DNA of 64,000 bases from a virus. The stretch lies in IMG/VR virus record IMGVR_UViG_3300045988_074608; one strand, written 5' to 3'. The notes under the pieces were generated by a model. It ran no database searches. It saw only the letters and a program-made list of their open reading frames with translations, and was not told the origin of the DNA. The translations under genes and the position numbers were made by a program. The stretch's first letter is position 1; the number at the start of each line of letters is the position of its first letter. Positions 23,848-64,000 of the stretch are shown in pieces.

Positions 23848-23855
23848 TAGAAGAT

Positions 23856-24708: not shown

Positions 24709-24736
24709 CAAATATTTAGAGCTAAAAGCCAATAAT

Positions 24737-26874: not shown

Positions 26875-26876
26875 CA

Positions 26877-27041
26877 ATGGATATTATCGAAGAAGGAAAG
26901 ATACGAAGAGAAATAAATGATGTTAAAAATCAAGTATGTTCTGCAGTAGCGAATAATGACTCTGAAACAGTCATGAAACTTATTCGTAGAATACAAGAAT
27001 TAGATCATCAATTATACGATAACAGAAATGATGAATATTGA
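26877..27041 (+). CDS. possible small protein (54 aa, below the track cutoff)
   Basis: My own translation is MDIIEEGKIRREINDVKNQ... It fills the gap between two genes and overlaps the next start. Confidence 0.3.
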   Translation: MDIIEEGKIRREINDVKNQVCSAVANNDSETVMKLIRRIQELDHQLYDNRNDEY

Positions 27042-28002: not shown

Positions 28003-28006
28003 ATCC

Positions 28007-28594: not shown

Positions 28595-31500
28595 TTAATT
28601 AACTCCAATAGGACGAGATCTTTTCTTCTTCGGTTTATCAGCATCAACATTCTATTTTTTATATAATAAACGCCAAGGAGCTGTATTAGCATACCACTGT
28701 GTCGATTTATCAAGTGCATAAGAGCCTCCACCACCCATAGATTCTGGCATAGAAGAATACCAACCTGCGGTTCCGAAGTATGCAAATGCATTCATTAATG
28801 CTTTATATTGTCTCGTTCTATTTTTATATTGTGACGATGACTTGATAATTTCGTCAGGATTATGTCCTGTAATACCAGCATAATCACCAAGTAGATCTAA
28901 TATCTAACTAAGTTTATCAACACTAGATGTTAAAATTGTAATAGATGTAATTAAATCACTAACCGTTGAAGGATTGTACATAGTCATCATTTCAATTCCT
29001 TGTCGCATTAATACAGCGTTTATTAAGAATAACAACCAATGTTCGTCATCTGGCGGTAATGTAGATACGTAAGCATTCATCATCACTGATGCTGTTACAA
29101 ACATTGTAACTAATCCTAACTCTCTTAATATTTTACCAACAGCATAAACCTCCTATCTCGACAAGTCTATATTTTTCATATCTTGTTGAGAAACGTGTTT
29201 ATATTTGAACAAGAAGGAACTTAATACTGTTTGCATTCTTTTTGTGTTAGACAAAATATGACCGAGACCGCTGAAGAAACTACGATATGGACCATTTTCT
29301 ATAAAACCAGTCATAAAATTAAAACCGCCTCTATAATAATGTTTTTTACGAGCTTTTCTTATATCACTCTTATTAAGACGTTTATCTGTAACCTCACCTG
29401 TTTCAGTTTCTCCAACTATAAAATCATTAAAATTTCTAAAACGTTCAGATATACCTACAAGTAGGAATGTACGTAACATTGTTACAAATGCAGCCCATGT
29501 ATTAGTCTATAACCATGTTTTATCTTCCTCGAGAGTCATACGAGTCATAGTCTGTATAATCTTTTTAGTTCTATTACCAATACTCTAATATTGTTCTGGA
29601 GTCATTCTGTTATCTACTATCTTAAGTTGACCATTTACCATTTTAACACAGTTTCTAGCAGTTTTAGCATTATAATACGCTCTATTAGCTTCTTTGAAAG
29701 ACATTCCATTTTCTACACATTTGTCTATAAACGGTTCTTTTGATAAGAATTCTATATTACCATTACCATCGATATACATTCTTGTAGAATTGTAAATCAT
29801 ATTTACATTTAAAGCTTTTATAAAATAATCACCCAGTGAGAACGGTATCATTCCGTCAATCTTAGATACAACTCTACCTATCTATGTTCTATATAAATTC
29901 TAATATCTTTTTGTTAAACTTTCTCCAAGTTGTAAAGAATCTATAATACCCATTGTTCTACTATACGAACCGCTTTTACCAAGAGATAATATAGCAGCAG
30001 GTAATTCTTTTATAAGTAATGTCACACACTTTGTAAAATCACGTTTATTATAATATCTACCACATCCAACTTCAACAAGAGTACACATAAGAGGGTCTAA
30101 CATTGATATTATTTGAGATACAAGTCTACATGCCAACATTACTTTTTGAGATATTCCTCTTACAATACCTATACGCTTTAAGAATGTTGCAGAACCACCA
30201 AATATAAGTTTTCTAAACCAATTAAAATGTTCCCAATCTTCAGAAAACAAATCAGTATGTGCTCTACGTTCATACACATCTCTATTCAACATATCTTCGA
30301 ACTGTTTACTATGTGTAGATTGCGTATTTTCATTTTCTTGAATATTAGTGAGAATCGTTTCAAATTTATTAACGTTTTCTATTTTAACTTTATAATTGTT
30401 AGCCATTCTAATCATAGCTACAACACTTCCAACCAAATCAGAAGATATCATAGATGGGTCTTCTAATCGATCTACATATCTTATTGGGATATTCTTAATC
30501 TCACTACCATCTGGACGTTTTGTTTTTTCAGGTATATATAAATCAGTATCTTGTTCGTTTGCATTAACATCTCTATTCCATATAGTTCCAATGTTTGAAA
30601 ATATCTGTAATCCAGCTTTCTTAGTTAGGTTTCTTGTAAGAATAGACATTGAACGTGCTCCTATTTGAGGTAATCTACCATCATATTGTTGTAAGAATGG
30701 TAGTTGTTTATATACTCTTTTATCAAGTTTTTCTTGTAACAACTACATTAATTTAAACAACTCTGGCTTAGTATTCTTAACTTTGTCATATTGAGAATCG
30801 TGATAATATTCATCTTTTGGTTGTATAAAATCATTATCTGATTCATTATAATCTTTGTTTACGTATTTAGGATCACTATTGTCAATATCAAGTTTATTAA
30901 ATAATAAATTAGGTATTACTTTATAAGAATTTTCGGTGTGTTCAATACCGTTTTCTTTATATTTAAATTGACTGACATGTGGTATAGGTATTGTAAATAC
31001 TTTTAATACATTACCATCTCGTGTATAAAATAATTGATCGGCTTTAGACTAAGCATCGGTCACTGACATTCCTTCATCTTCAAGTTGCTATACATAAGAC
31101 TACATTAAATACTAAAAAACAGAACCTTCTTCTTTAAATGTAAAATCGTTATTACCAAGAGTACCATCTATACATTTAACACCTAAGAATACATCTGATA
31201 TTATTTGATTTTTTCTAGCACCTGGTTTAATGGTATTAAAATGACCTTTTAATCCTGGCTTAATTTGATATTTAATATTTTCTATTTCAGTTTGTAGTTC
31301 ATTAATTTTCTATAAAAACTTTATACCATTTTTTGTAAGTTTTTTTGTATGTATATCAAACATGAAACTCCAATCATAGCTAACATATGTATCGTTCAGT
31401 TTATGTAAATTTATAAGTTTACGTAAATATCTTCCTAACTCTTTAATATCCTATAATCCTTCGGCAACATCTGCATCAGAACCATCGTATTCAGACTATT

Positions 31501-34500
31501 CAATCATATCTAAATATTTAGGATTAATTCCGACATATGAAAACATAGCTTGAAATTGTCGTTTTTCTGTAGGTGATTGTATTGAATTAAGAACTTCATT
31601 AAACGATTCATAATCTGGATTATATTTAATTTTACCAGATATCTTATTTTGAAAATTATTTAAATCTTCTGCAATTTGATACTCGTCACTATCAATCTGT
31701 TTTTCATTACCAAATTCATCGTAATATGATGATAAATTTAAACGCTATTTTTGTAATTCTTGTAATTGTGCTTTTTGAGAACTTGTAAGCAAATTTGGTT
31801 TAAATTTACCATTAATCGTGCAAGACTTTTTAATAGCAGTTATTTGTGAATTTAAAGAATCTACTGCTTTTAATGTGATTGCAGATAATGTATCAATACG
31901 TTCAGCATAATATTCACGAGTGAATCGCCTATTTGCATATTTAGACATAAATTCATTCATGCCTCGCAAATAGTCTTTATATATAGAACGTAATCCAGGA
32001 GTGTTGATAGGTATATCTGGATTACCAAATTCGTCAACATCGAGTTTAAAATCTTTATCGTTTAACTCCTCTTTTATCAAGTCTTCTATATTCTTATAAG
32101 TATAGAAAATACGGTTATGTTTTTTATCATTATTTTTACGCTTTCCGTATAAAAGCCATGCTTTAAAATCTTCTAAATCAGTATAGAACTATCTCTTATT
32201 TATAGGTTGTATAAAATCTCCATTATATAAACCTCTCCTATCTTTCTACATGAGATATGTAAAAGGGTTTATCATAGAAGCTTTGCCTATTAAAGAATGT
32301 TCATGTAAAGCTTTATCATATTGTTCTTTTATACCGTCTATATCTTCCTCAGTTCTGCGATCAGTTTCTTGATTCATTTTATATATCTCGTCGATAACCA
32401 TTCTAACAACAGGACTTTTTGCATCAGAAAATAAACCACAAATACGTTCAAAAGAATTCGTATCTCCAAAATCATATTGTGCAGATACCCATTTTTTAAT
32501 ATTTACAGTTAATCGTTTTTTCATGTCATCCGTAAGCTCTGAAGATTCTTGAGATTCAATCTTCTCTTTAATCCAAAAATCAAGCATGTGTTCTTGTGCA
32601 ACACGTTTCATATTTTGAATATATGTAAGCTTTTTTCGTAAATCTAAATCTGAAATAAGACGGCTTATCTCGTCTATAACAGGATTAGAACCAGGTTGTA
32701 TTACAACCAGCATTCTTTCAATATTAGACAACAGATTATCATAGAAACCGCAAATATCTTTTGTTATATATTGAATCTCGTCAAAAGAAAAAGGCTGAGT
32801 TTGTTTAGTATTAGTAGCTGTAGCGGCAGTAATAGAATTACCATTTGTATCCTAATAAACTCTATTACCAAAATTATCAATATTATAATAAACCATATCA
32901 TAGTTATTATCTTTAGCATTGATAAGCATTGCTAATATATTATTGATATCTGTATCAGCACGCTCTACAAACTATAGTACACCTTCTGCAAAAGCAGTCA
33001 TAACTTCATCAGCACTCTTAGATTCAATTGCTTCAGCTATGGTCTAATGTTGCATCTAAACTTCACGAACAGCGTTCTGATTAAATGCAATCTGTTTTTC
33101 ATCACCATATATAGAAGATGTCTCTGAGAATTTAGATTTGTATGATTTATCTTTACTTAACGTTGAATTTTCTATACTTTCAAACAAATCCTATATTGTA
33201 CGTTCTTCTTTAGTTCTGATTTTATTTATTGAAAATCTCTAATCTTTTGCAGCTCGTATCTTTCTTCTAGCCTCTTTAAATCTATCTATATAAGATTGTT
33301 TATTAAACCATAACCTGTTAAATTGCCAATTATTGTCTATATTTTCTCCAAGTTCTAAACCAACTTGTTTACTATATGAAGCCTATACAAAAATATCTAC
33401 AAGTTCTTTATATGCTGTGTTGTCATATTGTATACCGATACTTTGTAAGTATCTACTTATGAGTCTAGATATAAAACTCTTAATCTTATCCAACCATGTT
33501 TGTTTAGTATCATACTGAACCTGTTTTAATTTGTTTATAAATTCATCGTTACTAAGTTCAGCAACCATTTCATAAACATTTTGTAAACCTTGTATAGATG
33601 GATCATTATTAAATTGTTCTTTGAGTTTAGATAGTAATTTTTCAGCTTTTGCGCGTAATATTTTAGATCTTTGCAACGCTTCAACAGTAATTACATGAAT
33701 CATTTCATGGGTTAATGTCTACACTAATGCATTTTTAAAATTATTCTCATTACCGAATGATTTTGCGACATTTATAATAATAGTTCTTGTATTAGAATCA
33801 TATTTAGCAGAATAATTACCAGTACGATCAGCAACTCGTCTAATATTGACACTATTGAACAAACCTGGACTTGTTTTATTAATGTCTTTTAATATTGAGA
33901 GGATAAATGAGAAATTATGATTATCCTCACCTCTTGTTTGTTTTATAATGTATTGTAGAAGATCTTGGGCAGTGTTTAAAGATTTCTTATTTAAAAACCG
34001 ATTTAAATTACCCATTGATTCATATTCTTTAGTTTTAATCTAAACTTCAAGTCTTGGATCTTTTTTACCAATACGTACTCCTGCATATTTAACTCTTAAT
34101 CCAGGATCCATATTTTCTATATACTATCTCCAAATATCTTCTTTAACTTTAGCCTTTAATGTAACTTCGAATCTTGTTTCATATGTATCATGTACGAGAT
34201 TATCTATTGCATATCCTTGGTCTTTAATGTACTTTACAGCACGTTCTCTACTATATAGATGACTATCTCTATCTTCACCATGTCTTTTGTATATATTATC
34301 GTTTATTCTAGAGAATGTTCCTACATTGTCTGTAGCAGATTTAATTTGATTAGGATTAATAGTCAATAATTCATAATACCCAAAAGTCTTATGATAAACC
34401 ATACCCCCATCATATTCTTTTGGAAGTTTATCATATTTATTTCCAGTTCCATAATCTGTTATATAAGCCCTTTCTTCTAAAGAAGGAGAATCTTTTCTAA

Positions 34501-34921
34501 ATAGATTTTTTATATTAAGAAATAACGATATTTTATCATTAGATGTACCAAAATATGGGTTTTCTAGATAATTCTATTCTTGAGTTTGTTTTTCAGATCT
34601 AAATAATATAGGTTCTCCATTTTCATCAAATACATCTTTATACTATTCTTGTATTTCAAATCCATCTTGAAACCATTTACCGTATGTATCTGTGAAATCA
34701 GATGTGAAAAGCTGAGCTTTTTTCTACTCAGCTTTATTTACATCTCCTTTATAATACTCTAATAAATCATTATAGAGTTTTGATGATTTTCCTTCTTTTG
34801 TTTTATCAAGAGTATAACCATTGTTACAACACAGAACAGCATAGGCTCTTTTATAAGAGCCTAATACTTCTGTTAAGTGATTTAATTCTTCTTCGTATTT
34901 ACTTTTTATTAAACATACCAT
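28595..34921 (-). CDS. giant late protein, 2,108 codons with TAG read as sense; contains an HExxH motif
   Basis: Twelve tracked fragments (28904..34921) share one frame and each ends on TAG. My hand scan of all gaps found no in-frame TAA/TGA. ATG at 34919-34921, TAA at 28595-28597. Confidence 0.7.
33695..33709 (-). other. HEMIH zinc-metallopeptidase-type motif
   Basis: ..TLTHEMIHVITVEAL.. spans the junction of fragments 33383-33703 and 33719-34015. Confidence 0.5.
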
Positions 34922-34930
34922 AATAATTTA

Positions 34931-37900
34931 TTATTTACATTGTTCATCTATTTCATCTGCTAATGTATCAAGAGCTTCGTTTGTAGGATAATCTTTTAAA
35001 GATTTCTCAATAAATTCCTATCTAGCTTCCAGATTCTATTTCAACTATTCAACAGTAATACCAACAGATTCTGCTAACTTAGTAAGTACAGACTAATCAT
35101 TAAATAATTTAAGCTAATTTTCATCTATAATGTGTTTTTCGCCATATAATGCTTTATTTATAGTACTTCCTATTTCAGCATTACCGTCCTCCGTGGTCAT
35201 CTTATACAAGAATTCCCCTAAATTATAACATTCGAATACGTTTGCAAAATCCTAGTTCTAACTATCTTTCTACATGATAGCTGGTATTTTTTTCAAAAGA
35301 TTAATTACGTTAAATACCGCTTTACTTTTAACAACCATTGATTTTTTAGACTTATCATAATATATTACATTTTTATCTATATCTTCATAAGACAAACCTT
35401 CATAATCATGAACAGCTTCTTTAAAATCATTTATTATTTCGGAAATAAACCCTTGCTTGAAATCAGAATACTTGATATATTGAGTGGTTTTGTCAGAATC
35501 TTCGCCTAATACATCCTCAGTCACAAATGAACTAATATTCTACATTATTATTTTTAGATCTTTTACAGAGACTCCTTTTATAGGTTTGCTATTATAGTAA
35601 TAATACTTTTTATTTACAGATTTCTATTCTGTTTTCTATAATCCAGAATCTGTAAACCTGTTTTTCTTCAGTGTTCCATCTTCATTATAATAATTTAACA
35701 TTTTATCACCATTATGGTGAGCATAACAATATACACAAGAAGATGCACAATTACTATTATATTTTAACAAATCGGTTTTTCCACCATAACAAGAACACAA
35801 CTATCTAAATCTATTATTCTCGGTTAGTTTATTAGGTATTTGTGTACCAAGCATTTTATTAATAGCATCTACACTTAAACAACCTTCTATACTTATACCA
35901 TCCATTCTACAAGGTTCTGCGCATGTTGACAAGTCTAAATTATATTTTTTAGCAATATTTAACATCTTTTCAGCTATACCTTTTATAACATCCATTCTGG
36001 CATGAGTAAAATAAAATCCGGAATCATTCTTATCGAAGTATTTAGAATAATCATATCCTAATTCTTCCATAAATTTAGAAGTGGTTTTATAATAATCTAA
36101 CACTGAAAATCTTACATGTTTTACACCTAATTCACTAGCTCGTTTCATCAATTTATCCACTTCAGATATTTTAGTAACGCCTGGTATAATAGGATCTATT
36201 CGTAATGTAACATATTCTGGATCTAATCCTTGTTTTATAAAGTCACCTATTCTCTCAATCATGTCTTGCCATTTCATAACACCAGGCTCCCATTTAGTAT
36301 TGCCTAAAGTAGTAACGCTGAAATGAATTATTTTAGGTTTGTTTATCTATAACAATTCTCTCATTGGTAAACCATCGTGTTTTGTTATCAAATATAATGC
36401 GTCTATATCCTCATATCGAATAGGGTTCTTACTATAATCTAAAAATGTATGATTTCCTTTAGCCCAATCTTGTATCATTTTTGAGAAGAATACTGGATCA
36501 GTGTGTTCTGACGCAACTGCAATTCTTGGTCTAGTATCATCTCCAGTAAACGGTTTTATAGCAAGTATTTCATCATTAGTTAATATTGTCTTATCGGAAT
36601 TCAACGTTTTAACTTGTTCCAAATAAGTTCCGAATCTATCCTCATCATTCGCATCTATACTATCCTGCGTATCTATACTGTTATCTGGTTCAATAACATA
36701 ACCTTCTTTTTCCTATAATCTAGTTCTTATTTTGGTTAATATATTTGCGAATCGTGATTCTCCTGTAGGTTCACCTTTTTCCATAATTTCATCAAGGATT
36801 TCTCCTTTTCGATTAATATGTGTGAATTTTACATTTCCTGTATTAATTAACAATTGTTTAGCTTCTTCATTTTCTACAAATGACTAATACATGAGAGCAG
36901 ACAATATACTGTTACTAACTTTTCTCCAGATATTTAACCCTTCGCCAAGATTAACACTAGCACCTTTAGCTTTTGCTATTTTAGGATCTTGTTCTGTTAT
37001 TATAGAATTAAATATTCTAATCTTATCATCAGTTGACAATGCAGTAGAATATAAAACCTTAATAGCCTAGAATGCATTTTCAACAGTATTCGCGGAATGT
37101 TTTACAATAGATTTAATCTTATCAATATCTTTAATATATGATAATTCCTCTCCAGACAATACATTAAATACATCTGTTATATGACGTGTTGCAAAGTTAG
37201 ACAACATTAGATTATCACCACGTTCATAATGTATATTTATAGAATCTTGTTTCTTATAAAGACCTTCGATGGCAGTTATAAATGCATTTGGAACTTTATT
37301 GTTATTAATCAGATCATCTTTTGTTATAAATCCAGACTGTCGTATTGCGTTTTCAATAGATCCTCTCTGTTTATTTACATAATCTATTACACTTTGTAAT
37401 TGTGTATCAAATGTCTATTGAGCAGATTGTACAGTTGGAACAATTTTATTACCCTGCTTATCAAATTTGTCAAAATACGTCTTATCGTAATCGTCATCTA
37501 TTTCACATGAATAGAATTGATATGTCTAAGAACCTATTTTCATACGTAAACCTTTTGGATTTACAATTTTATATATAGGGTATTCGAGACTAGTTCCATA
37601 TTGTGATATTGATCCGACTCCAACTAATTTATATAATAAAAATCTATCGTTATCTGCATATGTTGTACCATTTCTAAATGTTTTTATAAACGGTGGGAAT
37701 TGTCCATTTTTATTTTTAGATATAGGTGAAGAATATTTATTATTGTAATATGATAATCCTATTATTGTCCTAGGTTCTGTTCTTAATGTAACAGTACCAT
37801 CATATCCTACCTATTTATATGTAAAATTAGATGTTATAAATCTACTATAACCTTTTTCAGTCTTTGTATTAGTAGTCGGTATTATATTATTATCTGATGC

Positions 37901-52765: not shown

Positions 52766-52767
52766 AA

Positions 52768-54531
52768 TTAATATATCATTGATGCCGACCCCTTGTCGGT
52801 TGTTTTAATATGATAACTATCTCTCAGATTAGCTTCTTGATAATCTATATTAGGTGCATAAGCTCCACTTGTAACATATGTATTACGGTCAGCCTTACCG
52901 TCTTTAGCTGCAATAGATGTATAATTAAACGGCATATAAACTGTACCAACGTTCACAGCTCTATTGTTTTCATCTCTTACATACAATGTTCCCACTGTAG
53001 CTTGTACAACTTGTCCATTTCGTTTAACAGTTGTTGCAACATTATTACCTGTTCTAGGTACAAATACAAGGTGTCTATTAGCTCCAAGAACTCTATCAGA
53101 CTTACCATGTTCATTCAATTTTCTACTTATATCTCTATGTAATGGAATATGTCTTTGCATTATATGATGTGAACCACTTGTTTCTGCTGCCCATCTATCA
53201 CCATCTATTAATCTAGACGCCTCTTGTTTACTAATAGTAAATCCATCTACTATTGAAGTTTTAATAACATCTTTATCACTACTTTTTCCTACTTTTGCCA
53301 CCACATTTAATTTATATTTTCCAGCATCTCCAGCTTTTCTTTGATGTCCAAATCGTTTATAAGTAACTTCAAACGGTTCACCGTGTGTGATTGTAGCACC
53401 TTGTACTTTTGCAGAATATATTTTCGATTGTTTACTATCTTTTATTGTTTTTCCAGTATATGGTATTTTACTAACGGTTTTCTCTAATACTTTTTTAGCT
53501 TCTGATGTAGCTTCTGCGAATGGTAATAATAAACCATTAGCTTTGTATTCATCGATATTTAATCCAATCAAAGCACCCAAACCTCTTAATAATTGCGTCT
53601 AATGATAATTGAGATTAATATCTTGTTTTTCTTTTGCAGCAGCTTTCTAACTTTCATATTGTTGTGCTTGCTTTTGTTTAGCCATATCATGCTGGAATCT
53701 TATATTTTCAAGAGCATATTCATTAACCTTCTTCTCTTCTCTAAGATAATCACTGTTTCTATTTACAATATCATCTGTAAGATACTGCATGGCTAATTTA
53801 TCAATATCTGCTTCAGAAGCTTGCGGGTTCACAGCTCTTACTTTATCTTTAGCTTGCGAATAATAATATTTACCGTAATCACTACTTAAGAAATCATTAA
53901 TATTACTTTTAAGCACGCCACGTATATCATTTTCGTCAACTGTGTAATAATCATAACCGTCTTTTTTCTAATTGGTTAATTTCTCATTGAACTTTTTATC
54001 AAGATGTTTAAACCAATCATCTGTTAGATCATGCAAATTTTTATATTCTATAGGCGATACTCTATCAAACAAACCATTTTTTAATGTATCCCAATCTTTA
54101 AATTTATGTTTCTGAAAGAAATCTTCCATCTACTAACTGTATAAACCCTTAGACTGTAACTGTGCCATTGCTTGAAGATAAGCTTGTCCTGTTTTCGATG
54201 ATTGTATAATTTGATTTATTTTATCTCTAGGTGTAGTTCTTATAACTTTAGCTATCATGGCACGACCCTCTGCTGTTCGCAGAGGATCTATACCCATTGC
54301 TTCCATGTTATCTATCGCATCATTTAATCTACCATATGTTAACTTATCATAATTTTCAACATCTTGTTGAAAAGGAGATGTAAAATCACTGTATTTAGAC
54401 AGATATTCATCCATTCTTTTTTCTCCAGATTCATACTGATCTTTTACAGCATTTAAATAAGCATTCATAATACCAGTATCATATAGCTCTGGGATAGGCA
54501 TATCTACTGGCTAATCATATCTATATATCAT
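52768..54531 (-). CDS. late structural/ejected protein, 587 codons with TAG as sense
   Basis: Fragments 52768-53580, 53647-53916 and 54133-54501 share a frame and join across TAGs, including TAG TAG at 54130-54135. ATG at 54529-54531, TAA at 52768-52770. Confidence 0.6.
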
Positions 54532-54536
54532 AATAA

Positions 54537-56639
54537 TTATTGTTTATACGGATTAATAAATGGAATTGGTTGAGGAATATTTACTAATGATTTAGCTAAA
54601 TCCATAAAGTTCGGCTAGAATGGTTTATACGGATTTATAAACGTTACGTTTTGAGGAACATGTACCAACTATTTAGCAAGATCCGTAAGATATTTTTCAT
54701 TTGGCATAGATACAGGTGGATTACTAAACAATCTATTAATTCGATTTTTACGTCCTGCTTTACTCATTAAATCTTTACGTTTTATATCTAAATCATCTTG
54801 ATATAATTTAACAGTATCACGCCATCTACTATCATCTACGCGTTTCTTATCCCATCTGTAGATATTCTCCATAAAGTCTTTTCTAGCTTGGTTAGCCATT
54901 GCCAATTTAGCAGCATGTGCTTTTTCAAACGCATCTTGATCGTATCTCATAGCATTTGTTCTATTCTCTCTATCAGCTTCACCTGCACGCATTAAAGCGT
55001 CGTAATATTGCTGCTTATATTTATTATTCTACTCGTCAGCTATTCCATAAAGCTTTGCAACATTATTTATATAACTATTATAAAGATCATTTCTAGCAAT
55101 ATATTTCTAACCTGCAGTAAGACCTCCTGTTTGGTCTATATTATATTTATTCTATCTAAGACTATCTCTATACTCTTTAAGTTGAGGATATATATTATAT
55201 CTAAGACCAGCTAAACCATTTAATGCTCTATTAGCGTATTGGTTTTGACTATATGTATTATACTTAGGAATACTTTGTTTATTGATATTTGACAATCTAG
55301 AAAGTGCTTCTGTAACTCCTAAAAGTGATGGAAGTCCAATCTGAAGTTCATTCTACCAATCTTTACCAATTGCATATTGTCTTCTGTAATTATTCATTTG
55401 TCCTTCTATATTATGTTGTTTTGCCTATTGTTGTGCGAGATCTTTGAGCTTATTAAAAGATTCTTGTTTTGACTGTTGTATATTTTTATTATACAAATCA
55501 CTTGTAGCTTTAGATAAAGAACTCAATTTACCATATCGTCCAACTTTGTTCTAAGCTTCATTCATACTTTGAATCTGCATAGTATACGGTGCAGCTTGCC
55601 TTGCGAACGTATCACCAGTTCTCCAATCAATATCATTACCAAGTATTACATTACTATCATCTTCTCTTACAGACGATGGTTGGTTATCAACACCAACTGT
55701 ACCTTTGTCAACAATAGTTGCACTACTATTATTAAAATCTATAATAGATTCTCCTTTACCAACATTACTTTCGTGTGGTCCATTTATAACACCGTATGGA
55801 GAATATACTTGTTTATAATTACCTTCGGATTTACCATTATTATAACACTTAGAATCTTTTCCTCTATTAGCTACTAATATTCCACCTTTAGTATTTCCAT
55901 AATCCTACAAATAATCCTATTGTAATCCTGTGGTTTGAGCACCTGCTTTATTAAACGTAGTGATAGCGTTTGCTTTCTGTTGTGCAACAGCCATTCTGTG
56001 TTTTAGAATTCTTTTCTTACGTCTAGCAGCAGCTCCTCCAAATATACCTCCTATAAGAGATCCTACAGCAGCTCCAATACCGGATCCAATTGGACCACCT
56101 ATCATACCTATCGCAGCACCTGCTCCAGCACCACTTCCAATAGATTTCATTGTATTTCCAGATGTTTGTGCTTTAAGGTTTGCAAGTTCTGCATCTTCAT
56201 CAATACCATTTTGAATATCATAACCAATTCCATTTATCATACCTTGTGAGGTACCTGCGTTCGATAACAGTTGTGACTAATTTGCAACAGGTTGTTTATA
56301 AGCATCTATAAGATTTCCTGCAAAAGCAATTCCTTGCTGAACCATTGCACCATAGTTAGCGTTTTTAAGATTTGTTTTAAAAGCACTAGGACCTTTTGGA
56401 CCTTTTTCTTGAGGACCTTGAGGACCTTGTGGAGTTTGTTGAACTGGTGTTTGTGAATAAGAATTGTTGTTATATGCATTTTTCCAATCCCAACCACTAT
56501 TTATTTCATCTCTAATATCTTTCAACTATCCCCACTGCGGTGGTTTAGGTGGTATATAACCTTGTGATGAATTATCATCTACACCGAATACAAAATTTGG
56601 TTTCTAATTACGTATATATTTAAAAGCTGTTAAATCCAT
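54537..56639 (-). CDS. late protein with glycine-zipper hydrophobic segment, 700 codons with TAG as sense
   Basis: Fragments 54669-54992, 55917-56240 and 56277-56525 share a frame. The gap scan found TAG only. ATG at 56637-56639, TAA at 54537-54539. Contains GSGAGAGAAIGMIGGPIGSGIGAAVGSLIGGIFGGAAA. Confidence 0.6.
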
Positions 56640-59600
56640 GATTTTCTAAATTTATTTATTATATAAGAAATCGAAGCGTTCTTTAAATTATCTATCTCAC
56701 AAATCATATATTTACCACGTTGTCTATTTCCATATTCAACGTTGCCATATCTTGGTATAGAATATCTAAAATTACCTTCTCTATTTGTAATACCAATTTC
56801 ACTTCCAGATTTCTATACTTCTGAATTTAAATTTGTAGACCATTTAAATATACAGTTGTTATAAGAATAATCTTTTGTTAATTGATCGTTTGTTATTATT
56901 TCTTGATTATCAAATACTTTTGTTTCAGTAGGTGATGCATTTACTACATATTTTATAATAGTATTTGGATATAATGTACCATTTTTAGTATTCCATTTGT
57001 TTACAACTAATTTACCATCTTCACAAGACATTAAGTATATATCGTTGTCAAATGTAATACTTTCTTCGAAATCAACTGTATATACAGATGTAAATGCTCG
57101 TAATAAGCTACTAAACGCTAGAGATTGTTCTTCTCCGTTTTTCAACAATACTTTTGAAACAAGTTCATCATAACGTTTATCATAGAATAATTTTGGATGT
57201 TTTATACCACATCTCTCATGCATTATATTTTGTGTACCAAACATCTTATTCATTGCAACGCTACCGTCTGATGTCAGCTATTTCAATTCATTATTATGTG
57301 AATCAAACCAGAATAGAGCTGTAGAAGATTGTGCATCACAGTATTGTTCTCTATGCATTCCTGTTTTTGTATCCAAATAATCATATCTTGATAAAACACC
57401 TCCAGTTCCTAATACAAGTGGTTTTCCAGAATCATCTGTTATCTGAGATCTTTCATTCACGCTAAATTGACCAAATGCGTGTTCCTACCAAAAGAACAAT
57501 TGATTATTAAATGTTCTAAGGTTTGTTATTTCACCATATCTGTCATCTACATCTAAGAAGTTTGCAGGTTTGAATACACACCACGAATCACTATTTTCAT
57601 TATTAGTCTTCTTATCTGAATAATAACATCTGTAATCTACGCTTGTGAGTGTATTTGAATCTTTTGATAAATCTGTAGATTCTATTGATTTAATCTGAGG
57701 TTGTATAGAATATGCAGAATTGTACTCATATTGTGGTTTTTCCTAAGCCCATATTGAATTAACCTGTGCAGGATCTTCTTGTATATTGGAAGCTTTACCA
57801 TCTGTCTATGCACTAAACTCTACTCCTGATGTATATGCGAGATTTATGCTTGTTTCAACAGGTATTGAATAAACAAGACATGCAGTTACAGACATTCCTA
57901 CATTCTTATCATAATATTTATGACATGATACATATTCAAATGGTTGTATGTAACAATCACCATCAAACACATTTGCTACTTTCTAATCTGCAGCAAATAC
58001 ATCTCCATAAGATACGTATGTATTCAAACATCTTGCTGAATAATCATATCCTCCATAAGGTGTAGTTCTTTGTCGTAAATTACACAAATATGTTCCAGAT
58101 ATACTACTTCTATATATATTTACAATATTTCCATCTGCACCCTTGATATAATCTATATACGAACTATTCTATCTATCCTCTACAGAAAGAGTTGATTTGA
58201 ATATTTTATTACTATCTTTGTTTGCACCAGGTATTACTTCAAAATCACCTGTTGTAAATTTATCTGGAACTTTATAATCATCATCTGTAAAACCTGTAGC
58301 TTGTACTGTAGTCGTATTCGTATGAGGTTTCTATATAACATTTGTGCAAATATTTTTATAAAATATATTATTTGCGTTTTCTAATTTCAACAAGATACAA
58401 GATCCTCCAGTACCCATTAATGCAGAACGTCCATCACAATCATCAAGTCTATTACGGTATTTATCATCAGATACAAATATACCAAAATCATTATCAGTAC
58501 TCAGTACTTTATTAGTATTATTAAACGTACCGCTATCTACAACATTACAGTATTGTAAATTACCAATTGTAACTGTATTATTTGTGTATTTTGCAGAATA
58601 TGTTGTAGTTTTATCTACAGTTTTAGAATCGAACAAACCATTCCATGGTATTTGTGAAACAACGTTACAAGCCTATATTTTATAAGAATATCTGTTCATT
58701 TTCAGATTGATAGTATCATAATACGTATCATCTCCGTATTTTGTTTTAACACCTGCCGACTCATATTTTCTGTTAAATACAGTATTACTCTATTCGTATA
58801 ACTTTGTATACCCAAACTGATTGTAATTATATATGTTATCAAGACCGCCAGCTTTTCCAAATCCACGTATATTGCATGTATTATCTGTATCACCTATTGT
58901 TTGATATGAAATAAATGATGGTGTTTTACCAACTGTCCTAAAAACATATTGTTCACCTCTATAGCTATCAAGTCTATGTTCATTTAAACAAGCAGGGTAT
59001 GCCTAATAATATGAAGGGTTTGTTCTACCGTATGGTTGACATATAAACATTGACTACAAACCACTTATCAGCTTCTCTTCATTACTGTTCTCATCATCAG
59101 ATTTATATACTCTATATGTAGATAATTTGTTTTCTGTACCATTGGATAATCGTCCATATAAATCTTTATATATTATTTTATTATTCTCGGTGACAGCTTT
59201 TGGAGGTAGTGCTAAATTATGACCACATACAGAAGATCCTATATAATCATACTTTAAAGACGTACTTAAATTCAAATTTGGATTAATAACATCTGCAGAA
59301 GCTTTCCACGGACAATCAAAATTACGCATTTTTTGTGGATATGTTAATTCATTCGTATTAGCATGATGTCCGAACAAATAACTAACACTATTTAAATATG
59401 TCTAAGTATTATTTACAACCTATTTAATGTAATCTGTATTATATACAGCTTCTGGACATATAAACTAATATAGATCATGATTATCAAAATTATCAGCTTC
59501 TGGTAAACCAACCAAATTATCATTTGTTGAATCGAACTAAGGACTTCTTGCAATCCATATAGAACCTGTCCAGAATTGTTGTGTAGTTAATGTACCTGTA

Positions 59601-61756
59601 GGAGTGTATACATTGTCAATATTTGTATCGTGATCATCTTTGTGTTTGTTTCTACAAATAGGTCTTGCTAACACACCTTGCGCTATATTTTGAATATCGT
59701 TTACAGATCTATGACATCTTACAATTTCATACGAAGTAATCTTATATTTTTCATACTCATTATCACCGTATATCTGTTTCAATTTCTAATTGAACGAATT
59801 GATATCTACTTCAAATTGTATTCCTAACGGATAAACTGTTAATTCTGTATTATCGTCTTCTAAAACACCTTCATCATTATAATGTTGTCCATTTGCACAA
59901 AATGTTTCAAAACCAGGATCATTTATAGAAGGAGTTCTAATATCATCTATCCATAAAGCAGAACTACTTTCTCCTTTACCATTATATAGTACAATTGCAA
60001 ATCTATATAATTCATCCCTTCTTAAAGATTTCAAACCGTATGAAATACAAGGGTTCGCGTATGTACCATTATTATTATTAGGTATATATTTATCTTTTAA
60101 GTTTATTCTACCCAAACTTTCAAGTTGTACTTCCCTATCATTTGTAACCAGATCATAGTGTTCTTTTACAACATTTACAATTGGTACATTAGTACATTTT
60201 GACCATTTTCTAGAATCATCGTTAAAACCATCTGGATATTCTATTCTAATACCTGATACTCTGGAACCAATCTATTTTGGATAAGATCTCGTATAATCAC
60301 CTATAACTGATGTTATAATAAACTACCAGGATATATATTTTCCGCTACCTCCGTATATATGATAATATTCATTAGGAGTTTTAAACTTTTTATACTTACA
60401 AAGATTTTCAGATATAATAAATGATCTTGTTACATCGTTATAATCATTAAAGAAATCACACTTATCATATTCAAGACGCTCTTCTGTAGACATAGCGTCT
60501 CGTTCTTTCATGAATTCAGAATATTCTTTATCTTCATATATACCATATGATTTTCTAAATTTTACGTGGTTTTTATTGTCAACTCTAAATGCACGAGCAT
60601 CAAATTCTTTAGCAATATCATCTAATTCTGACTAATTATCTTTTATATTAGCTGCGAATAATATATCATCTTTAGCTTCTATAGTCTTAGGTATTACATA
60701 TACACCTGATAAATTATTAAATTCACTTAATGGTATTATTTGTAAAGCTTCTTGACCACTGTCTGTATACTACATAAATTTAGTAACCTCACCAGCATCA
60801 TCCTCTTCTGAAGATTCTATTATTGATCTATCATATATAAGAGATATTTCAGGTTCTTGACCATTTTGTTTATAAAATATTCTATAAATATATACATGGT
60901 CAAATAAACTCTAATCACTTTCTAAAGGTATTCTAAGTGATACTCCACAATTTATAGTATCTTTCTCTAAACCACCTTTTGATTTTTTACTTATGATGTC
61001 ATCATCAGTATAACCATATCCTAAATATATAGGTTTTGTAGGTGCTGATAACGGAGATACGTTACCACGCTTTTTATAAAATCTATAAGCATATTGTACA
61101 GTACCTGCTTTCAAACTACCATATACCAAATCACAGAATATAAAAGGTTTTATAACTACATTTGGAAACTAATCATACAACTATACATTTCCAAAGTTAT
61201 TAGCATTAATTTTATCATCAGCTTCTGCAACATTTATAATTTTCATAAAATGTTCACCATCAGCTATGTAAAGTTTAATATTATCTTCAGTTTCCCATGT
61301 TAATACAGTACTTACTTTATCACCGGATAACTGATTTTTTAATTCTGTATTTTTGGTTAAGTTTAAGTCTTTTGAACAGAATATAAGTTTGCAATATTCT
61401 ATGTCATTTTCAGCACTATTTTGTTTTATTCTAATAACAGCCCAGTTTTTATGTTCATCTTCGGCTACGATTATTCCAATATTACGTGTACTACAAGCTG
61501 ATAATATTTTATTTACATTAAATGTAAATGTACTAGATAATACAAAGTTTACTTTAGCTATATTTTTAAATCCTTCTATAGCACGAATTTCACCATATGA
61601 ATTAGTTGCATCTGTTTTATTATCGCCATTATATGAACTTACACGTATATTTTCACCATAAAGATACTATCCTTCTTGTATATTACTGTACGAAACATCT
61701 GTATTCATTCCTTTATTAAAGGATGTTATAGATATATTGTTGTTATTAGTAGCCAT
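56630..61756 (-). CDS. large tail/muzzle-like structural protein, 1,708 codons with TAG as sense
   Basis: Eight fragments (56813..61129) share one frame and are joined by TAG only. ATG at 61754-61756, TAA at 56630-56632. The tail role comes from position upstream of the RNAP/cargo genes, as in crAss-like genomes. Confidence 0.55.
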
Positions 61757-62603
61757 AATAGTAATCGTTATAATTTAATTGTTTTCTACCAACATTTTTG
61801 AAGAATGTATCATCTCCATCCCATTCTGGGACAAGTTTATTCCATTCATTTTTAATACTACGCATATCTGTTTCTGTAGGCATCATAGCTTCTGCATAAG
61901 CTTGAGCTCTAAAGAAATTCCATTGTTGTTGTAGATAATAGTAAACATTTGCAGAATTTCTTACACTACCACCAAGAGAACCTTTCAGATATTTATTGAA
62001 CGACAACTTCCACATTACATACCAGTATATTGCTTCTTGGTATGATGCTGAGTCTGGTATCAAAGGGTATCCTCGTTCATCTGTAGCTATTGCTTTGTAT
62101 GCGAGTTTTATATAACCTTCTGGTTTATTAAATACAAACCAACCTGGTTTTGTAAAATATGTAACATCTTCATCTGAATTAAGCTTATCTTCTGCATATT
62201 TTACAAGGTTGTTACCATAAAACTAAGACTATGCTGTAGGTAATTTATATCTCATTGGTTGTTCTGGTTCATGATGTGTAAATTTATGTTTAACAGGTTC
62301 TTTAAAAGTAGCTATTTCAGATCTAACAGGGACCCATGGACCATTTGGATTATTTGAATAAGCTATACCATTTAAATCATGCATATCATCCGGTATAGGG
62401 ACTTGATTTTCATGTATTTTTAATATGGGACACCCTTCTTGTCCTGACTCTTTCTATATATACTACATCGGTGCCCCAATGTGTTCTATAGCTTCAAATA
62501 TCCATTCTCTTATGTCGGTTATTCTCATATTTTTCTCCGACATATCTGAATCTGCAAGTATTTTAGCTATAACAGATTCACATTTTGTATATTTGTATAT
62601 CAT
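61746..62603 (-). CDS. late structural protein, 285 codons with TAG as sense
   Basis: ATG at 62601-62603, four in-frame TAGs, TAA at 61746-61748. Overlaps the next gene by 11 nt. Confidence 0.55.
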
Positions 62604-63030
62604 CTATATTTATATAATCGTGTTTGTTAAATATAAGCTGTGCCAATGCTCGTTTATTCTACCTTACTAGATTTAAACTATATTTGTACATATCTGGGAA
62701 TGTTTTTTTCTGTTTTGACCAGAATAACCTGTATTTATAGCCGTCAGAATGTTCATTTAAATGATAAATACGTTTACCATATTCTGCAGAAGCTTTATAA
62801 TCTACAGATAGGCTCTTATCAGTAAACGTTTTAGGTTTGTATTTACATATACATATGATACCTAATCCAAAAGGCATTTTAAACACTTCTGAGCGGTTTA
62901 AAATTATATCTAGTATACTCTTATTACATTCGTCTAATATGCGCTTAAAACGAACGTAAGGCACGTCTTTGTTAATCTTATGATATGTTTTATACATATC
63001 ACGTATAGTGTATGAATTTTTATTTCTCAT
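62578..63030 (-). CDS. small late protein, 150 codons, possibly HU/IHF-like
   Basis: ATG at 63028-63030, one in-frame TAG (62659), and a TGA stop at 62578-62580. The HU/IHF guess rests on size, basic composition and crAss-like synteny only. Confidence 0.45.
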
Positions 63031-63703
63031 CTTGCTGTGGACCCTTAGGTTTCACACTTGCTAATGTGCTATTGTTATCATCATCGCTAGGCATATTTAA
63101 TATAAATGCTAATTCGTTCTTCATTATCATAGCTTTTATATCTGGTATCATCCATCCTGGAATCTTTATATCATCTTCATCACCGTCTTCATCAGAATCT
63201 GTAAAAGCACCAGTAACCCATATAAACCTAAGTCTATTCAAATCCGTAAGACCTTCAAGATATATATATTCGTTTTCATACCACCATCCTAACTCTCCGA
63301 ATGTGTATTTTCTAAAAAAGTGAAAATGTCTACGTTTCTCATTCATTTTCTGTATAGGACAACCTTCCTGATCCTGTACACTAGTTATACAGCTGTCACT
63401 AGAACCAGATAATTCTGGTAATTTATCCTTAGTTCTTTTTCTATATAGACATGTATCATCTAATGGTTGTTCATCAATTAACTCTATAGGACCTATTGTC
63501 TTAAGTATATCATCATCGTCCTCTTCATCTTCTTTACCATCTTCTTTATCTTTTTCTTGTTTCTTTTTCAAAATGGCAGCTTTATATGCGAGAATCCATA
63601 ATGCTATCTAAGCTCTTGAGAAATCTTCACTTTCACTTACATTATTGTTTCTAATCATGAGTAGAACATCGTCTATCACACTACGTAATGTAAATAATTT
63701 CAT
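63020..63703 (-). CDS. late acidic protein, 227 codons with TAG as sense
   Basis: ATG at 63701-63703, one in-frame TAG, TAA at 63020-63022. Contains long Asp/Glu runs. Confidence 0.5.
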
Positions 63704-63704
63704 A

Positions 63705-64000
63705 TTATTCAGATTCTATTATTCTAACATCTTCTCCTTTTAATAAATCGTTTGTATTTACAATTTTATATTTATATCGTACAACCTTTTTAAAATCTAA
63801 TGTAAACAAACGTTTAAAGAAGTTCTTTTTGTTTTTATACTCTTTTTTCTTGTATATGTATAAATACTAAGTATTACGTACATCTAATTTTATAGATATA
63901 CTATCTTTACCTATACTGTAATATACATTTGTAAGGTCATTGTATTTAATACTATCTGTAAATATAGTATCTTTAATAACTGTAACCTAACCCCCTACCC
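63705..64000 (-). CDS. C-terminal part of a late gene running off the window
   Basis: The frame is open to the window edge with two in-frame TAGs. TAA at 63705-63707 abuts the next ATG. Confidence 0.45.

What the first reader, a model, noticed from the sequence alone, without database searches (positions are those of the whole stretch)
28595..64000. The whole late (- strand) module reads with TAG as a sense codon, while the early (+ strand) module uses the standard code
In the standard code the - strand is about 55 fragments. Every fragment end I checked is cta on the + strand, meaning TAG. That is more than 40 ends, for example 28904, 29153, 29585, 29900, 31745, 35801, 39833, 44057, 49994, 53647, 56277, 59786 and 60911. 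Consecutive fragments stay in frame, and a codon-by-codon hand scan of the gaps found no in-frame TAA or TGA inside the nine merged genes. The true ends are TAA (eight genes) or TGA (62578-62580). I count more than 170 in-frame TAGs, including tandem TAG TAG at 52547-52552 and 54130-54135. The 52547 doublet sits in a Gln/Asn-rich run (TND**DNNRQNNNQQNNN), which fits TAG = Gln. Stop-codon recoding of late genes has been reported for crAss-like and other gut phages. The class is therefore known, but this instance decides how everything downstream is annotated.
Basis: partly seen in the sequence, partly recalled or inferred. Interest (0 to 1): 0.75.

Follow-up and report, generated by a model that had tools for sequence, protein, structure and literature searches.

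The report
TAG-as-glutamine late genes, intron-split suppressor
This gut crAss-like phage reads the stop codon TAG as glutamine in its structural genes (a known habit of its family), and the suppressor tRNA that should make this possible lies just outside the window, split in its anticodon by a self-splicing-type intron that hides it from ordinary tRNA finders.

Summary
On the - strand from 28595 to 64000 there are eight complete ORFs and one partial ORF. They hold 182 in-frame TAGs and no internal TAA or TGA, and they end in TAA (8) or TGA (1). Homology runs across the TAGs. In relatives the TAG positions align with TAG, CAG or CAA, so TAG = Gln. The + strand replication genes have no in-frame TAG in 6,180 codons.

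The phage belongs to the Suoliviridae (crAss delta group), where late-gene TAG-to-Gln recoding is published and supported by proteomics. The finding as written is therefore a new member of a known kind.

One thing goes beyond that. The window has no CUA tRNA. I recovered the source genome (ENA contig, identical over 11.66 kb). Its amber suppressor lies about 5 kb before window position 1, on the late-gene strand. A 987-nt insertion carrying an HNH endonuclease ORF splits it between U35 and A36.

The joined exons equal the intron-less tRNA of a sister genome. The insertion has a covariation-supported group-I-type core. At least 30 related genomes share it, and default ARAGORN misses the tRNA in all of them. 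This may explain reports of recoded crAss-like phages with no detectable suppressor tRNA.

The parts
28595..34921 (-). Last late gene, 2,108 aa, 31 in-frame TAG, TAA stop at 28595-28597. Homolog of the 2,281-aa gp22 of phage cr272_1.
   Evidence: It aligns at 47% identity over about 2,100 columns to L163 and L164, across 31 TAGs.
34931..52765 (-). Giant gene, 5,944 aa, 96 in-frame TAG, TAA stop. It carries a DFDID motif (the motif of the crAss-type virion RNA polymerase). Homolog of the 6,386-aa gp23 of cr272_1.
   Evidence: One HSP of 2,729 columns to cr272_1 spans 47 TAGs. One HSP of 4,617 columns at 95.9% identity to L157 spans 72 TAGs.
52768..54531 (-). Late gene, 587 aa, 6 TAG including the TAG TAG doublet at 54130-54135. 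TAA stop.
   Evidence: (30% identity to cr272_1 gp24).
54537..56639 (-). Late gene, 700 aa, 13 TAG after the ATG. TAA stop.
56630..61756 (-). Virion structural / tail stabilization protein homolog, 1,708 aa, 25 TAG. TAA stop.
   Evidence: phrog_28748, E 1.9e-105. (tblastn covers residues 13-1708 in cr272_1, cr273_1 and others).
61746..62603 (-). Late gene, 285 aa, 4 TAG. TAA stop.
   Evidence: phrog_33740, E 1.3e-66. (73 related loci).
62578..63030 (-). Late gene, 150 aa, 1 TAG. The only late gene here that ends in TGA (62578-62580).
   Evidence: phrog_12177.
63020..63703 (-). Virion structural protein, 227 aa, 1 TAG after the ATG. TAA stop.
   Evidence: phrog_9863.
63705..64000 (-). C-terminal part of a ninth late gene that runs off the window. 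2 in-frame TAG, TAA stop at 63705-63707.
197..28507 (+). Early/replication module. No in-frame TAG in its conserved genes. Among its ORFs, 30 end in TAA, 12 in TGA and 7 in TAG.
3239..3310 (+). tRNA-Gln(UUG). It is an ordinary Gln tRNA, not the suppressor. Its D and T arms resemble those of the suppressor.
16270..16354 (+). tRNA-Leu(UAA).

Best explanation
The window comes from a crAss-like phage of the family Suoliviridae. Its roughly 63-kb - strand block of structural, virion RNA polymerase and tail genes is written in a code where TAG means glutamine. Its + strand replication block avoids TAG inside genes, so the unmodified host ribosome can read it.

**Proposed mechanism**

- Decoding of TAG is provided by a phage amber suppressor tRNA (anticodon CUA, Gln-type).
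- This tRNA gene is not in the window. In the source genome it lies about 5-6 kb before window position 1, on the late-gene strand. It sits about 1.4 kb into the - strand unit and directly upstream of a dUTPase gene.
- In this genome the tRNA gene is interrupted between U35 and A36 by a 987-nt group-I-type intron that encodes an HNH homing endonuclease.
- The intron must be spliced out before a functional suppressor exists.
- Once the suppressor accumulates it competes with host release factor 1 at UAG, and the late proteins can be made full length.
- Late genes end in TAA or TGA, which stay stops.

**Shown here**

- The recoding itself, and the Gln assignment.
- The TAG-free early genes.
- The split tRNA gene, and the exact match of its joined exons to an intron-less allele.
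- The conserved, covarying RNA core of the intron.

**Inferred**

- Splicing.
- Charging with Gln.
- Timing of expression.
For: **Recoding**

- 180 in-frame TAG and 0 internal TAA/TGA in 11,760 codons, against 582 and 1,530 TAA+TGA in the other two frames.
- Coding density of ORFs of at least 200 aa rises from 0.03-0.59 to 0.70-1.0 when TAG is read as sense, in 72 of 73 related late-module loci.
- Homology crosses the TAGs.

**Gln assignment**

- In L157, the window TAGs face TAG 81 times, CAG 9, CAA 2 and other codons 2. In reverse, that locus's TAGs face window CAG 5, GAG 2, TGG 1 and GAA 1.
- Gln is the best residue by a wide likelihood margin.
- CAG is depleted in late genes: CAA 357, CAG 79, TAG 180. 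Early genes have CAA 123, CAG 69.

**Early genes**

- 0 TAG in 6,180 codons.
- Orthologs in 80 loci are likewise free of TAG.

**Suppressor tRNA**

- tRNA(CUA) lies at the head of the late strand, next to dUTPase, in sister contig 062669, in L189 and in RefSeq cr272_1, where it is annotated tRNA-Gln.
- The source genome L268 is identical to the window over 11,660 nt.
- Its tRNA exons (L268 4067-4033 and 3045-3008) flank a 987-nt insertion. Joined, they equal the 73-nt intron-less tRNA exactly.

**Intron**

- The ORF matches Pfam HNH at 22.0 bits, against a cut-off of 21.4.
- The 5' exon ends in U. The intron ends in G in 23 of 24 sequences.
- The P3, P5-like, P6, P7 and P8 helices, with a P3/P7 pseudoknot, are paired in 99.2% of cells. 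10 pairs have changes on both sides, giving 62 compensatory cells. 0 of 500 shuffles reach this. Slid controls give 31-45% paired.
- The P2 hairpin also shows compensating changes on inspection of nine sequences; they were not counted.
- The same intron in the same tRNA occurs in 28 IMG/VR contigs and in GenBank Bohxovirus PV686213.

**Published model**

The overall model is published for this family (PMC7886860; 10.1101/2021.08.26.457843). Proteomic proof that TAG is read as Gln exists for two crAss-like phages (PMC9523058).
Against: - There are no expression, splicing or proteomic data for this genome.
- For the 987-nt intron, the P1 helix and internal guide sequence were not identified. No 5-nt guide complementary to GCUCU exists in it.
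- Rfam gives no Intron_gpI match for the 987-nt intron.
- One homolog (L271) ends in A instead of G.
- About 23 kb of the source genome to the right of the window could not be fetched, so a second, intact CUA tRNA is not excluded. The complete relative cr272_1 has only one.
- Gln identity of the tRNA rests on three things: resemblance to the phage tRNA-Gln, the RefSeq label, and the TAG/CAG/CAA substitution pattern. It does not rest on charging data.
- No release factor or tRNA synthetase was found among the ORFs scanned, but the small early ORFs were not all scanned.
Confidence: 0.85

Rival explanations
1. The recoding is real, but the split tRNA gene is dead. On this reading a homing endonuclease gene landed in the tRNA gene and the insertion is not spliced. 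TAG would then be decoded by another source: a second phage suppressor in the unscanned part of the genome, a host suppressor, or near-cognate reading by tRNA-Gln.
For: No P1 or guide sequence was found, and Rfam gives no hit for the 987-nt insertion. About 23 kb of the genome was not scanned. The literature has proposed host-encoded suppressors for recoded phages that lack one (PMC7886860).
Against: - The exons are intact and identical to the functional-looking intron-less allele.
- The arrangement persists in at least 30 genomes whose HNH ORFs are only 55-93% identical, and the tRNA exons still give a CUA loop in those inspected.
- The non-coding core shows many compensatory changes. A dead insertion would not keep these.
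- The complete relative cr272_1 has only one CUA tRNA.
Confidence: 0.1
2. The whole genome, early genes included, is translated in a cell where TAG is already Gln, because the host itself uses code 15 or carries a suppressor. There is then no code switch during infection.
For: Early genes contain no sense TAG, so they are silent on this point. In the four window cases measured, their TAG ends are followed by another stop within 6-9 codons. In relatives the next stop is often the very next codon.
Against: - Early genes avoid TAG as a sense codon completely: 0 against about 95 expected. A host where TAG was always Gln would not explain this.
- 7 of 49 early ORFs in the window and 66 of 835 early orthologs in relatives end at TAG.
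- The phage carries its own suppressor.
- Published host assignments for recoded gut phages are standard-code bacteria (10.1101/2021.08.26.457843).
Confidence: 0.04
3. TAG encodes an amino acid other than Gln, or the late genes are broken pseudogenes or assembly artefacts.
For: ARAGORN labels any CUA tRNA 'Pyl'. At 25% identity the residues aligned to TAG are mixed.
Against: The likelihood margin for Gln is very large, and close relatives exchange TAG almost only with CAG or CAA. There is no TAA or TGA in 11,760 codons. The same pattern is seen in 72 of 73 related loci from many samples.
Confidence: 0.01

Closest known systems
TAG-to-Gln ('code 15') recoding of late genes in delta-group crAss-like phages, now Suoliviridae (Yutin et al. 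2021, PMC7886860; Borges et al., 10.1101/2021.08.26.457843; proteomics in Peters et al. 2022, PMC9523058)
   Same: - Same family: the nearest annotated relatives are Buhlduvirus cr272_1 and Bohxovirus.
- Same split: a recoded structural/late block and a TAG-free replication block.
- Same inferred residue.
- A phage suppressor tRNA.
- A giant gene of about 6,000 aa.
- Group I introns and inteins elsewhere in the genome.
   Different: In this genome, and in at least 30 relatives, the suppressor tRNA gene is interrupted in the anticodon by an intron that carries an HNH ORF. My literature searches found no description of this. No release factor or synthetase was seen.
Group I introns in bacterial tRNA anticodon loops, such as cyanobacterial tRNA-Leu(UAA) and Azoarcus tRNA-Ile (from my own knowledge, not tested against those sequences)
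   Same: The insertion lies in the anticodon loop. The 5' exon ends in U and the intron ends in G. The core order is P7, then the 3' strand of P3, then P8, then the 3' strand of P7, with a pseudoknot. The 189-nt variant in contig 083604 gives a sub-threshold full-length Rfam Intron_gpI match and a P1 helix with a U.G pair.
   Different: The host gene is a phage amber suppressor. The 987-nt form carries a 300-aa HNH ORF right after the 5' splice site, and its P1 was not found. Two unrelated introns occupy the same site in sister genomes.
'Code change module' of Jade phages: suppressor tRNA plus tRNA synthetase plus release factor upstream of the lysis cassette (10.1101/2021.08.26.457843)
   Same: A suppressor tRNA placed at the head of the recoded block, among ORFs that are almost all free of the recoded stop (five of six here).
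   Different: Here only the tRNA was found. No synthetase or release factor was found. The codon is TAG, not TGA.
E. coli supE, an amber suppressor derived from tRNA-Gln (own knowledge)
   Same: A Gln-type tRNA with anticodon CUA that reads UAG as Gln in competition with RF1.
   Different: This one is phage-encoded and essential for the phage's own late genes. Here it is intron-containing.

Membership tests
Stop-codon (TAG to Gln) recoded crAss-like phage, Suoliviridae type | Conserved late genes contain many in-frame TAG but no in-frame TAA or TGA | tested here: met
   180 TAG and 0 TAA/TGA in 11,760 codons. The same holds in 72 of 73 related loci.
Stop-codon (TAG to Gln) recoded crAss-like phage, Suoliviridae type | TAG columns correspond to Gln in homologs | tested here: met
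   TAG exchanges with CAG and CAA, and Gln is the best fit by likelihood.
Stop-codon (TAG to Gln) recoded crAss-like phage, Suoliviridae type | Replication/early genes readable in the standard code | tested here: met
   0 TAG in 6,180 codons of 29 ORFs. Orthologs in 80 loci are TAG-free.
Stop-codon (TAG to Gln) recoded crAss-like phage, Suoliviridae type | Phage-encoded suppressor tRNA with anticodon CUA | tested here: met
   Not in the window. It is present in the source genome as a split gene at L268 3008-4067. Intact copies exist in sister genomes and in cr272_1.
Stop-codon (TAG to Gln) recoded crAss-like phage, Suoliviridae type | crAss-like hallmark genes and synteny | tested here: met
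   Homologs of the tail stabilization/virion structural protein. A giant protein with a DFDID motif. The same gene order as cr272_1.
Stop-codon (TAG to Gln) recoded crAss-like phage, Suoliviridae type | Peptide evidence for Gln at TAG | not testable with these tools
   Available only for other crAss-like phages (PMC9523058).
Group I intron | 5' exon ends in U and the intron ends in G | tested here: met
   CUCU|U... at the 5' junction in all sequences. G before AAC at the 3' junction in 23 of 24 sequences. The boundaries are fixed by the intron-less allele.
Group I intron | Conserved core helices P3-P8 with a P3/P7 pseudoknot, supported by covariation | tested here: met
   99.2% of cells paired, 10 pairs changed on both sides, 0 of 500 shuffles as high, slid controls 31-45%.
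Group I intron | P1 helix formed by the 5' exon and an internal guide sequence, with a U.G pair at the splice site | tested here: inconclusive
   Not found for the 987-nt intron. Present in the unrelated 189-nt intron of contig 083604 (GCUCU pairing with GGAGC).
Group I intron | Match to Rfam RF00028 at the gathering score | tested here: not met
   No hit for the 987-nt intron. The 189-nt intron scores 26.6 bits against a gathering score of 50, with E 4.7e-5 in a 301-nt search.
Group I intron | Guanosine-dependent self-splicing | not testable with these tools
   Needs an in vitro assay or RNA data.
Group I intron | Optional homing endonuclease ORF | tested here: met
   Pfam HNH at 22.0 bits, cut-off 21.4. 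blastn hits to annotated HNH endonucleases.
Two-piece (permuted) tmRNA (side observation) | Rfam match above the gathering score, a tRNA-like domain and a tag reading frame | tested here: met
   RF04321 at 62 bits against a gathering score of 47, at 8264-8439. The acceptor GGGCGUG/CACGUCC has a G.U at the third pair. The tag NQNNNIVDYTHVA* resembles tags that ARAGORN calls in relatives.

The most novel reading that the evidence does not exclude
The switch from the standard code to TAG = Gln is gated by RNA splicing. No suppressor can exist until the group I intron that splits its anticodon has excised itself. Splicing efficiency (guanosine level, Mg2+, folding, or the intron's own endonuclease/maturase) would then help set the time at which late and lysis proteins can be made. 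The phage's own two-piece tmRNA and tRNA-Gln(UUG) would belong to the same translation-takeover kit. For example, the tmRNA could rescue ribosomes that run through host TAG stops.
Probability: 0.12. Interest if true: 0.75.

Novelty: new variant of a known kind. Interest (0 to 1): 0.5.

Why it matters
**Annotation.** Every gene to the right of 28595 must be called with TAG = Gln. Otherwise nine proteins, one of 5,944 aa, fall into 188 fragments.

**The field.** Several papers note that codon reassignment and detectable suppressor tRNAs do not match up in crAss-like phages:

- PMC7886860 makes this point directly.
- A 2026 preprint (10.64898/2026.08.21.746148) reports an amber-recoded Crassvirales phage with no CUA tRNA, and cites the same for a Suoliviridae phage.

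This genome looks 'suppressor-less' to ARAGORN, yet it has a suppressor hidden behind an intron in the anticodon loop. The same is true of at least 30 related contigs.

This gives a concrete, testable explanation for part of that discrepancy. It also points to a simple fix: search for tRNAs in a way that allows introns, or search for the two tRNA halves.

Tried and rejected
**Suppressor tRNA in the window**
- ARAGORN found none with default settings, with introns allowed, or at a lowered threshold. The low-threshold calls were noise.

**Finding the source genome**
- Megablast of the late region against GenBank phages gave no match.
- An exact-pattern search for the window's 5' end found nothing in IMG/VR or in JGI metagenomes.
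- The source contig was found instead through an exact protein look-up.
The 23 kb right of the window therefore stayed unscanned.

**Other searches**
- The dUTPase next to the suppressor was used to collect relatives, but it mostly pulled in unrelated phages.
- Rfam at a permissive E-value on the 987-nt intron gave only chance-level hits.
- The 189-nt and 987-nt introns at the same site share no detectable similarity.
- A guide sequence for P1 in the 987-nt intron was not found.
- Pfam on 20 early ORFs and 5 upstream ORFs found no release factor or tRNA synthetase.
- At 25% identity (cr272_1), the residues opposite TAG are uninformative. Closer relatives were needed.
- GC skew only follows the strand switch near 28.5 kb.
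- The ORF-poor stretch 13.2-15.0 kb shows no notable repeats.

Full report

Yes. If only TAA and TGA count as stops, the - strand between 28595 and 63718 resolves into eight ORFs of 2111, 5958, 592, 705, 1715, 288, 158 and 233 codons. A ninth ORF runs off the right end and stops at TAA 63705-63707.

In the reading frame of these ORFs there are 180 TAG and not one internal TAA or TGA in 11,760 codons. The two other frames hold 582 and 1,530 TAA+TGA. At the lower off-frame rate (4.9% per codon), the chance of zero is effectively nil.

- Both TAG TAG doublets are there.
- The stop-codon tally is 8 TAA and 1 TGA (at 62578-62580), as stated.
- 177 of the 180 TAGs lie after the first ATG of their ORF.
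- Under the standard code the same frames break into 188 pieces.

**2. Does homology cross the TAGs, and what does TAG encode?**

The proteins are recognisable crAss-like virion proteins.

- The 1,708-aa protein matches phrog_28748 (virion structural protein, E 1.9e-105).
- By tblastn it aligns over residues 13-1708 to the tail 'stabilization'/virion structural protein of cr272_1, cr273_1 and many other crAss-like phages.
- The 5,944-aa ORF carries a DFDID motif, the hallmark of the crAss virion RNA polymerase (abstract of 10.1101/2020.03.07.982082, listed).
- It aligns to the 6,386-aa gp23 of cr272_1 in one HSP of 2,729 columns that spans 47 TAGs.
- It aligns to a 96%-identical sister genome in one HSP of 4,617 columns that spans 72 TAGs.

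Close relatives decide the residue.

- In the sister genome, 94 window TAGs face TAG (81), CAG (9), CAA (2), TCG (1) and GAG (1). That genome's own TAGs face window CAG (5), GAG (2), TGG (1) and GAA (1).
- Across 73 loci around the tail genes, TAG faces TAG or Gln far more often than anything else.
- I ran a Codetta-style test using the substitution profiles of the 20 amino acids in the same alignments. Gln wins by 684 log units over His. With one weighted vote per position the margin is 36.6.
- TAG supplies 29% of the Gln codons in late genes (CAA 357, CAG 79, TAG 180). CAG is depleted compared with early genes (CAA 123, CAG 69). This fits C-to-T changes turning CAG into TAG.

**3. The early module**

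The + strand (1-28507) encodes the following:

- a sigma-70-like factor (9790-10350)
- the DNA polymerase (18336-20246)
- a DnaB-type helicase (20813-21763)
- a split AAA_24 ATPase
- a DnaG-type primase (24737-25720)
- an AAA ATPase
- a PD-(D/E)XK nuclease

Twenty-nine of its ORFs (6,180 codons) contain no TAG, where about 95 would be expected at the late-gene rate. Their orthologs in 80 related loci are also TAG-free.

Of 49 + strand ORFs, 30 end in TAA, 12 in TGA and 7 in TAG. In relatives, 66 of 835 early orthologs end in TAG. In half of those the next codon is TAA or TGA, but most of these are polymerase orthologs, so they are not independent events.

The early genes can therefore be read in the standard code, and suppression would hardly affect them. 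'Readable under both codes' is the more exact wording.

**4. Where it belongs**

The nearest annotated genomes are:

- cr272_1 (Crassvirales; Suoliviridae; Oafivirinae; Buhlduvirus)
- Bohxovirus

cr272_1 has the same gene order. It also has TAGs inside its annotated giant gene: 37 in gp23 and 18 in gp22.

In 72 of 73 IMG/VR loci that hold the homologous tail genes, coding density jumps only when TAG is read as sense.

The literature describes exactly this for the delta group:

- TAG reassigned to Gln, mostly in late genes, with suppressor tRNAs (PMC7886860).
- A regulatory model in which late and lysis genes cannot be translated until the code has changed (10.1101/2021.08.26.457843).
- Metaproteomic proof in two crAss-like phages (PMC9523058).

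The finding as written is thus a further instance of a known kind.

**5. The suppressor tRNA**

The window holds only tRNA-Gln(UUG) at 3239-3310 and tRNA-Leu(UAA) at 16270-16354.

In the sister contig IMGVR_UViG_3300045988_062669, a tRNA with anticodon CUA lies on the late-gene strand, directly upstream of a dUTPase gene. It is about 5.8 kb before the equivalent of window position 1. The same tRNA in the same place is found in a third contig and in cr272_1. RefSeq labels it tRNA-Gln there, and ARAGORN reads the anticodon as CUA. Its D and T arms resemble the phage tRNA-Gln(UUG).

I then recovered the window's own genome through an exact protein look-up. It is ENA ERZ27229359, contig k115_191848, 96,440 bp. 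The fetched locus L268 is identical to the window over all 11,660 shared bases.

Default ARAGORN finds no CUA tRNA in L268. But the two halves of the tRNA are there, at L268 4067-4033 and 3045-3008 on the - strand. That is roughly window coordinates -4963 to -6022. They are separated by 987 nt, inserted between U35 and A36 of the anticodon. Joined, the halves reproduce base for base the 73-nt intron-less tRNA of the sister contig. This fixes the boundaries.

**6. What the insertion is**

- It encodes a 300-aa ORF without TAG (L268 3100-4002). The ORF matches Pfam HNH at 22.0 bits, cut-off 21.4, and resembles annotated phage HNH homing endonucleases.
- The 5' exon ends in U and the insertion ends in G.
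- The same insertion in the same tRNA occurs in 28 IMG/VR contigs (ORF identity 55-93%) and in GenBank Bohxovirus PV686213.

I aligned the last 110-140 nt of the insertion, plus the start of the 3' exon, from 24 distinct sequences (A2). These show the helix order typical of a group I core: P3, P5-like, P6, the 5' strand of P7, the 3' strand of P3, the P8 hairpin, then the 3' strand of P7.

- 99.2% of cells are paired.
- 10 of 26 pairs changed on both sides, giving 62 compensatory cells.
- No shuffle out of 500 reaches the observed values.
- Only 31-45% of cells pair when the partners are slid.
- A P2 hairpin upstream also shows compensating changes by eye in nine sequences; these were not counted.
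- The junction sequences (AGACUGAACG..., GAUGCAACAGUC) resemble the Rfam group I consensus shown.

Points still open or against:

- I could not find P1 or its guide sequence.
- Rfam does not score the intron.
- One homolog ends in A rather than G.

A second sister contig (083604) carries a different, ORF-less 189-nt insertion at exactly the same site. That one has a clear P1 (GCUCU pairing with GGAGC, with a U.G pair) and a full-length but sub-threshold Rfam Intron_gpI match (26.6 bits, E 4.7e-5 in a 301-nt search).

I conclude that the suppressor gene of this genome is interrupted by a group-I-type intron. That it splices is an inference. It rests on three things: the intact exons, the conserved covarying core, and the persistence of the arrangement in many genomes that depend on TAG decoding.

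**7. How it most likely works**

*Shown:*
- The late genes need TAG = Gln.
- The early genes do not.
- The genome carries one recognisable CUA tRNA gene, split by an intron, about 1.4 kb into the - strand unit.
- Five of the six called ORFs around it are TAG-free: three small ORFs, the HNH ORF and dUTPase. The 76-aa call at L268 4524-4754 has three in-frame TAGs and may be spurious. TAG-rich genes follow downstream.

*Inferred:*
- The tRNA is transcribed, spliced and charged with Gln by the host enzyme.
- It then outcompetes RF1 at UAG.
- TAA and TGA remain stops.

No release factor or synthetase was found among the ORFs scanned. Whether splicing adds a timing step is open.

**8. Novelty and value**

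The recoding itself is known. The intron-split suppressor was not found in the literature I could search.

The same literature records a mismatch between recoding and detectable suppressors:

- PMC7886860.
- 10.1101/2021.08.26.457843.
- 10.64898/2026.08.21.746148, which reports no CUA tRNA in an amber-recoded Crassvirales phage and cites the same for a Suoliviridae phage.

All 31 intron-bearing loci tested here look suppressor-less to default ARAGORN. This is a concrete explanation for part of that gap, and it can be tested.

**Limits**

- The tRNA lies outside the 64-kb window.
- About 23 kb of the source genome was not scanned.
- No RNA or protein data were available.

Noticed in passing
window 8264-8439 (+): A two-piece (permuted) tmRNA gene: Rfam RF04321 at 62 bits against a gathering score of 47. 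The acceptor stem GGGCGUG/CACGUCC has a G.U at the third pair. The likely tag is NQNNNIVDYTHVA, ending in TGA. ARAGORN calls similar permuted tmRNAs in relatives (tags GTKNVIDYSCVA, DNTNNIVNYTHVA, GNINVVDYTGLQEAA), and RefSeq annotates one in cr272_1. No paper found discusses tmRNA in crAss-like phages. A link to stop-codon read-through is only a guess.
   Followed up: partly
window 22275-23847 (+): The AAA_24 (Sak4-like) ATPase gene is split. 22275-22709 matches profile positions 5-86 and 23422-23847 matches positions 96-187. The roughly 715-nt insert holds a small ORF at 23099-23326 with an HNH-like motif by eye (no Pfam match); its DNA matches an HNH endonuclease gene of cr53_1. It is probably a group I intron, as reported for delta-group crAss-like phages.
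   Followed up: partly
window about 13200-15035: About 1.8 kb has no ORF of 60 aa or more on the + strand under the standard code, and none of 150 aa or more on either strand with TAG read as sense. It is conserved only in the closest relatives. cr272_1 has an unannotated gap of about 2.2 kb at the equivalent place. No Rfam hit at the gathering score and no notable repeats.
   Followed up: partly
window 3239-3310 and 16270-16354 (+): tRNA-Gln(UUG) and tRNA-Leu(UAA) lie in the early module. Both recur in the early regions of many relatives. They read the A-ending codons CAA and UUA, which this 32% GC genome favours.
   Followed up: partly
L188 579-840 (contig IMGVR_UViG_3300045988_083604): In this close relative the same suppressor tRNA is split at the same site (U35|A36) by a different, ORF-less 189-nt group I intron. 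So three alleles exist among sister genomes: no intron, a 189-nt intron, and a 987-nt intron with HNH.
   Followed up: yes
L268 2932-3005 (-) and L268 about 4141-4200 (-): In the source genome a 74-nt insert directly after the suppressor's 3' exon is called tRNA-Ile(AAU) by ARAGORN, but Rfam does not support it. Upstream of the suppressor there is a tRNA-like T arm (CUCGGGUUCGAUUCCCGA) with a weak tmRNA 3'-end match (E 0.0022).
   Followed up: no
early-gene orthologs in L076-L155: Of 835 early orthologs, 66 end in TAG. In 33 of these the very next codon is TAA or TGA, mostly in the DNA polymerase gene. This could be a safeguard against suppression, or a C-terminal Gln followed by the real stop.
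   Followed up: partly
L163 and L164, against window 34931-52765: In two relatives (about 50% identity) the giant gene is in two ORFs. They break at the equivalent of residue 4265/4266, with about 900 nt between them. This could be an intron or an inserted gene.
   Followed up: no
L268 1-1578 (-); L267 6853-6925 (-): The first TAG-rich late gene upstream of the window carries intein and LAGLIDADG domains (precomputed Pfam hits). cr272_1 has a RAGATH-1 hammerhead ribozyme in its early region (73 bits, gathering score 56).
   Followed up: no
window 9790-10350 (+): A sigma-70-family factor (regions 2 and 4) is encoded in the early module. cr272_1 annotates the homolog as an RNA polymerase sigma factor.
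   Followed up: no
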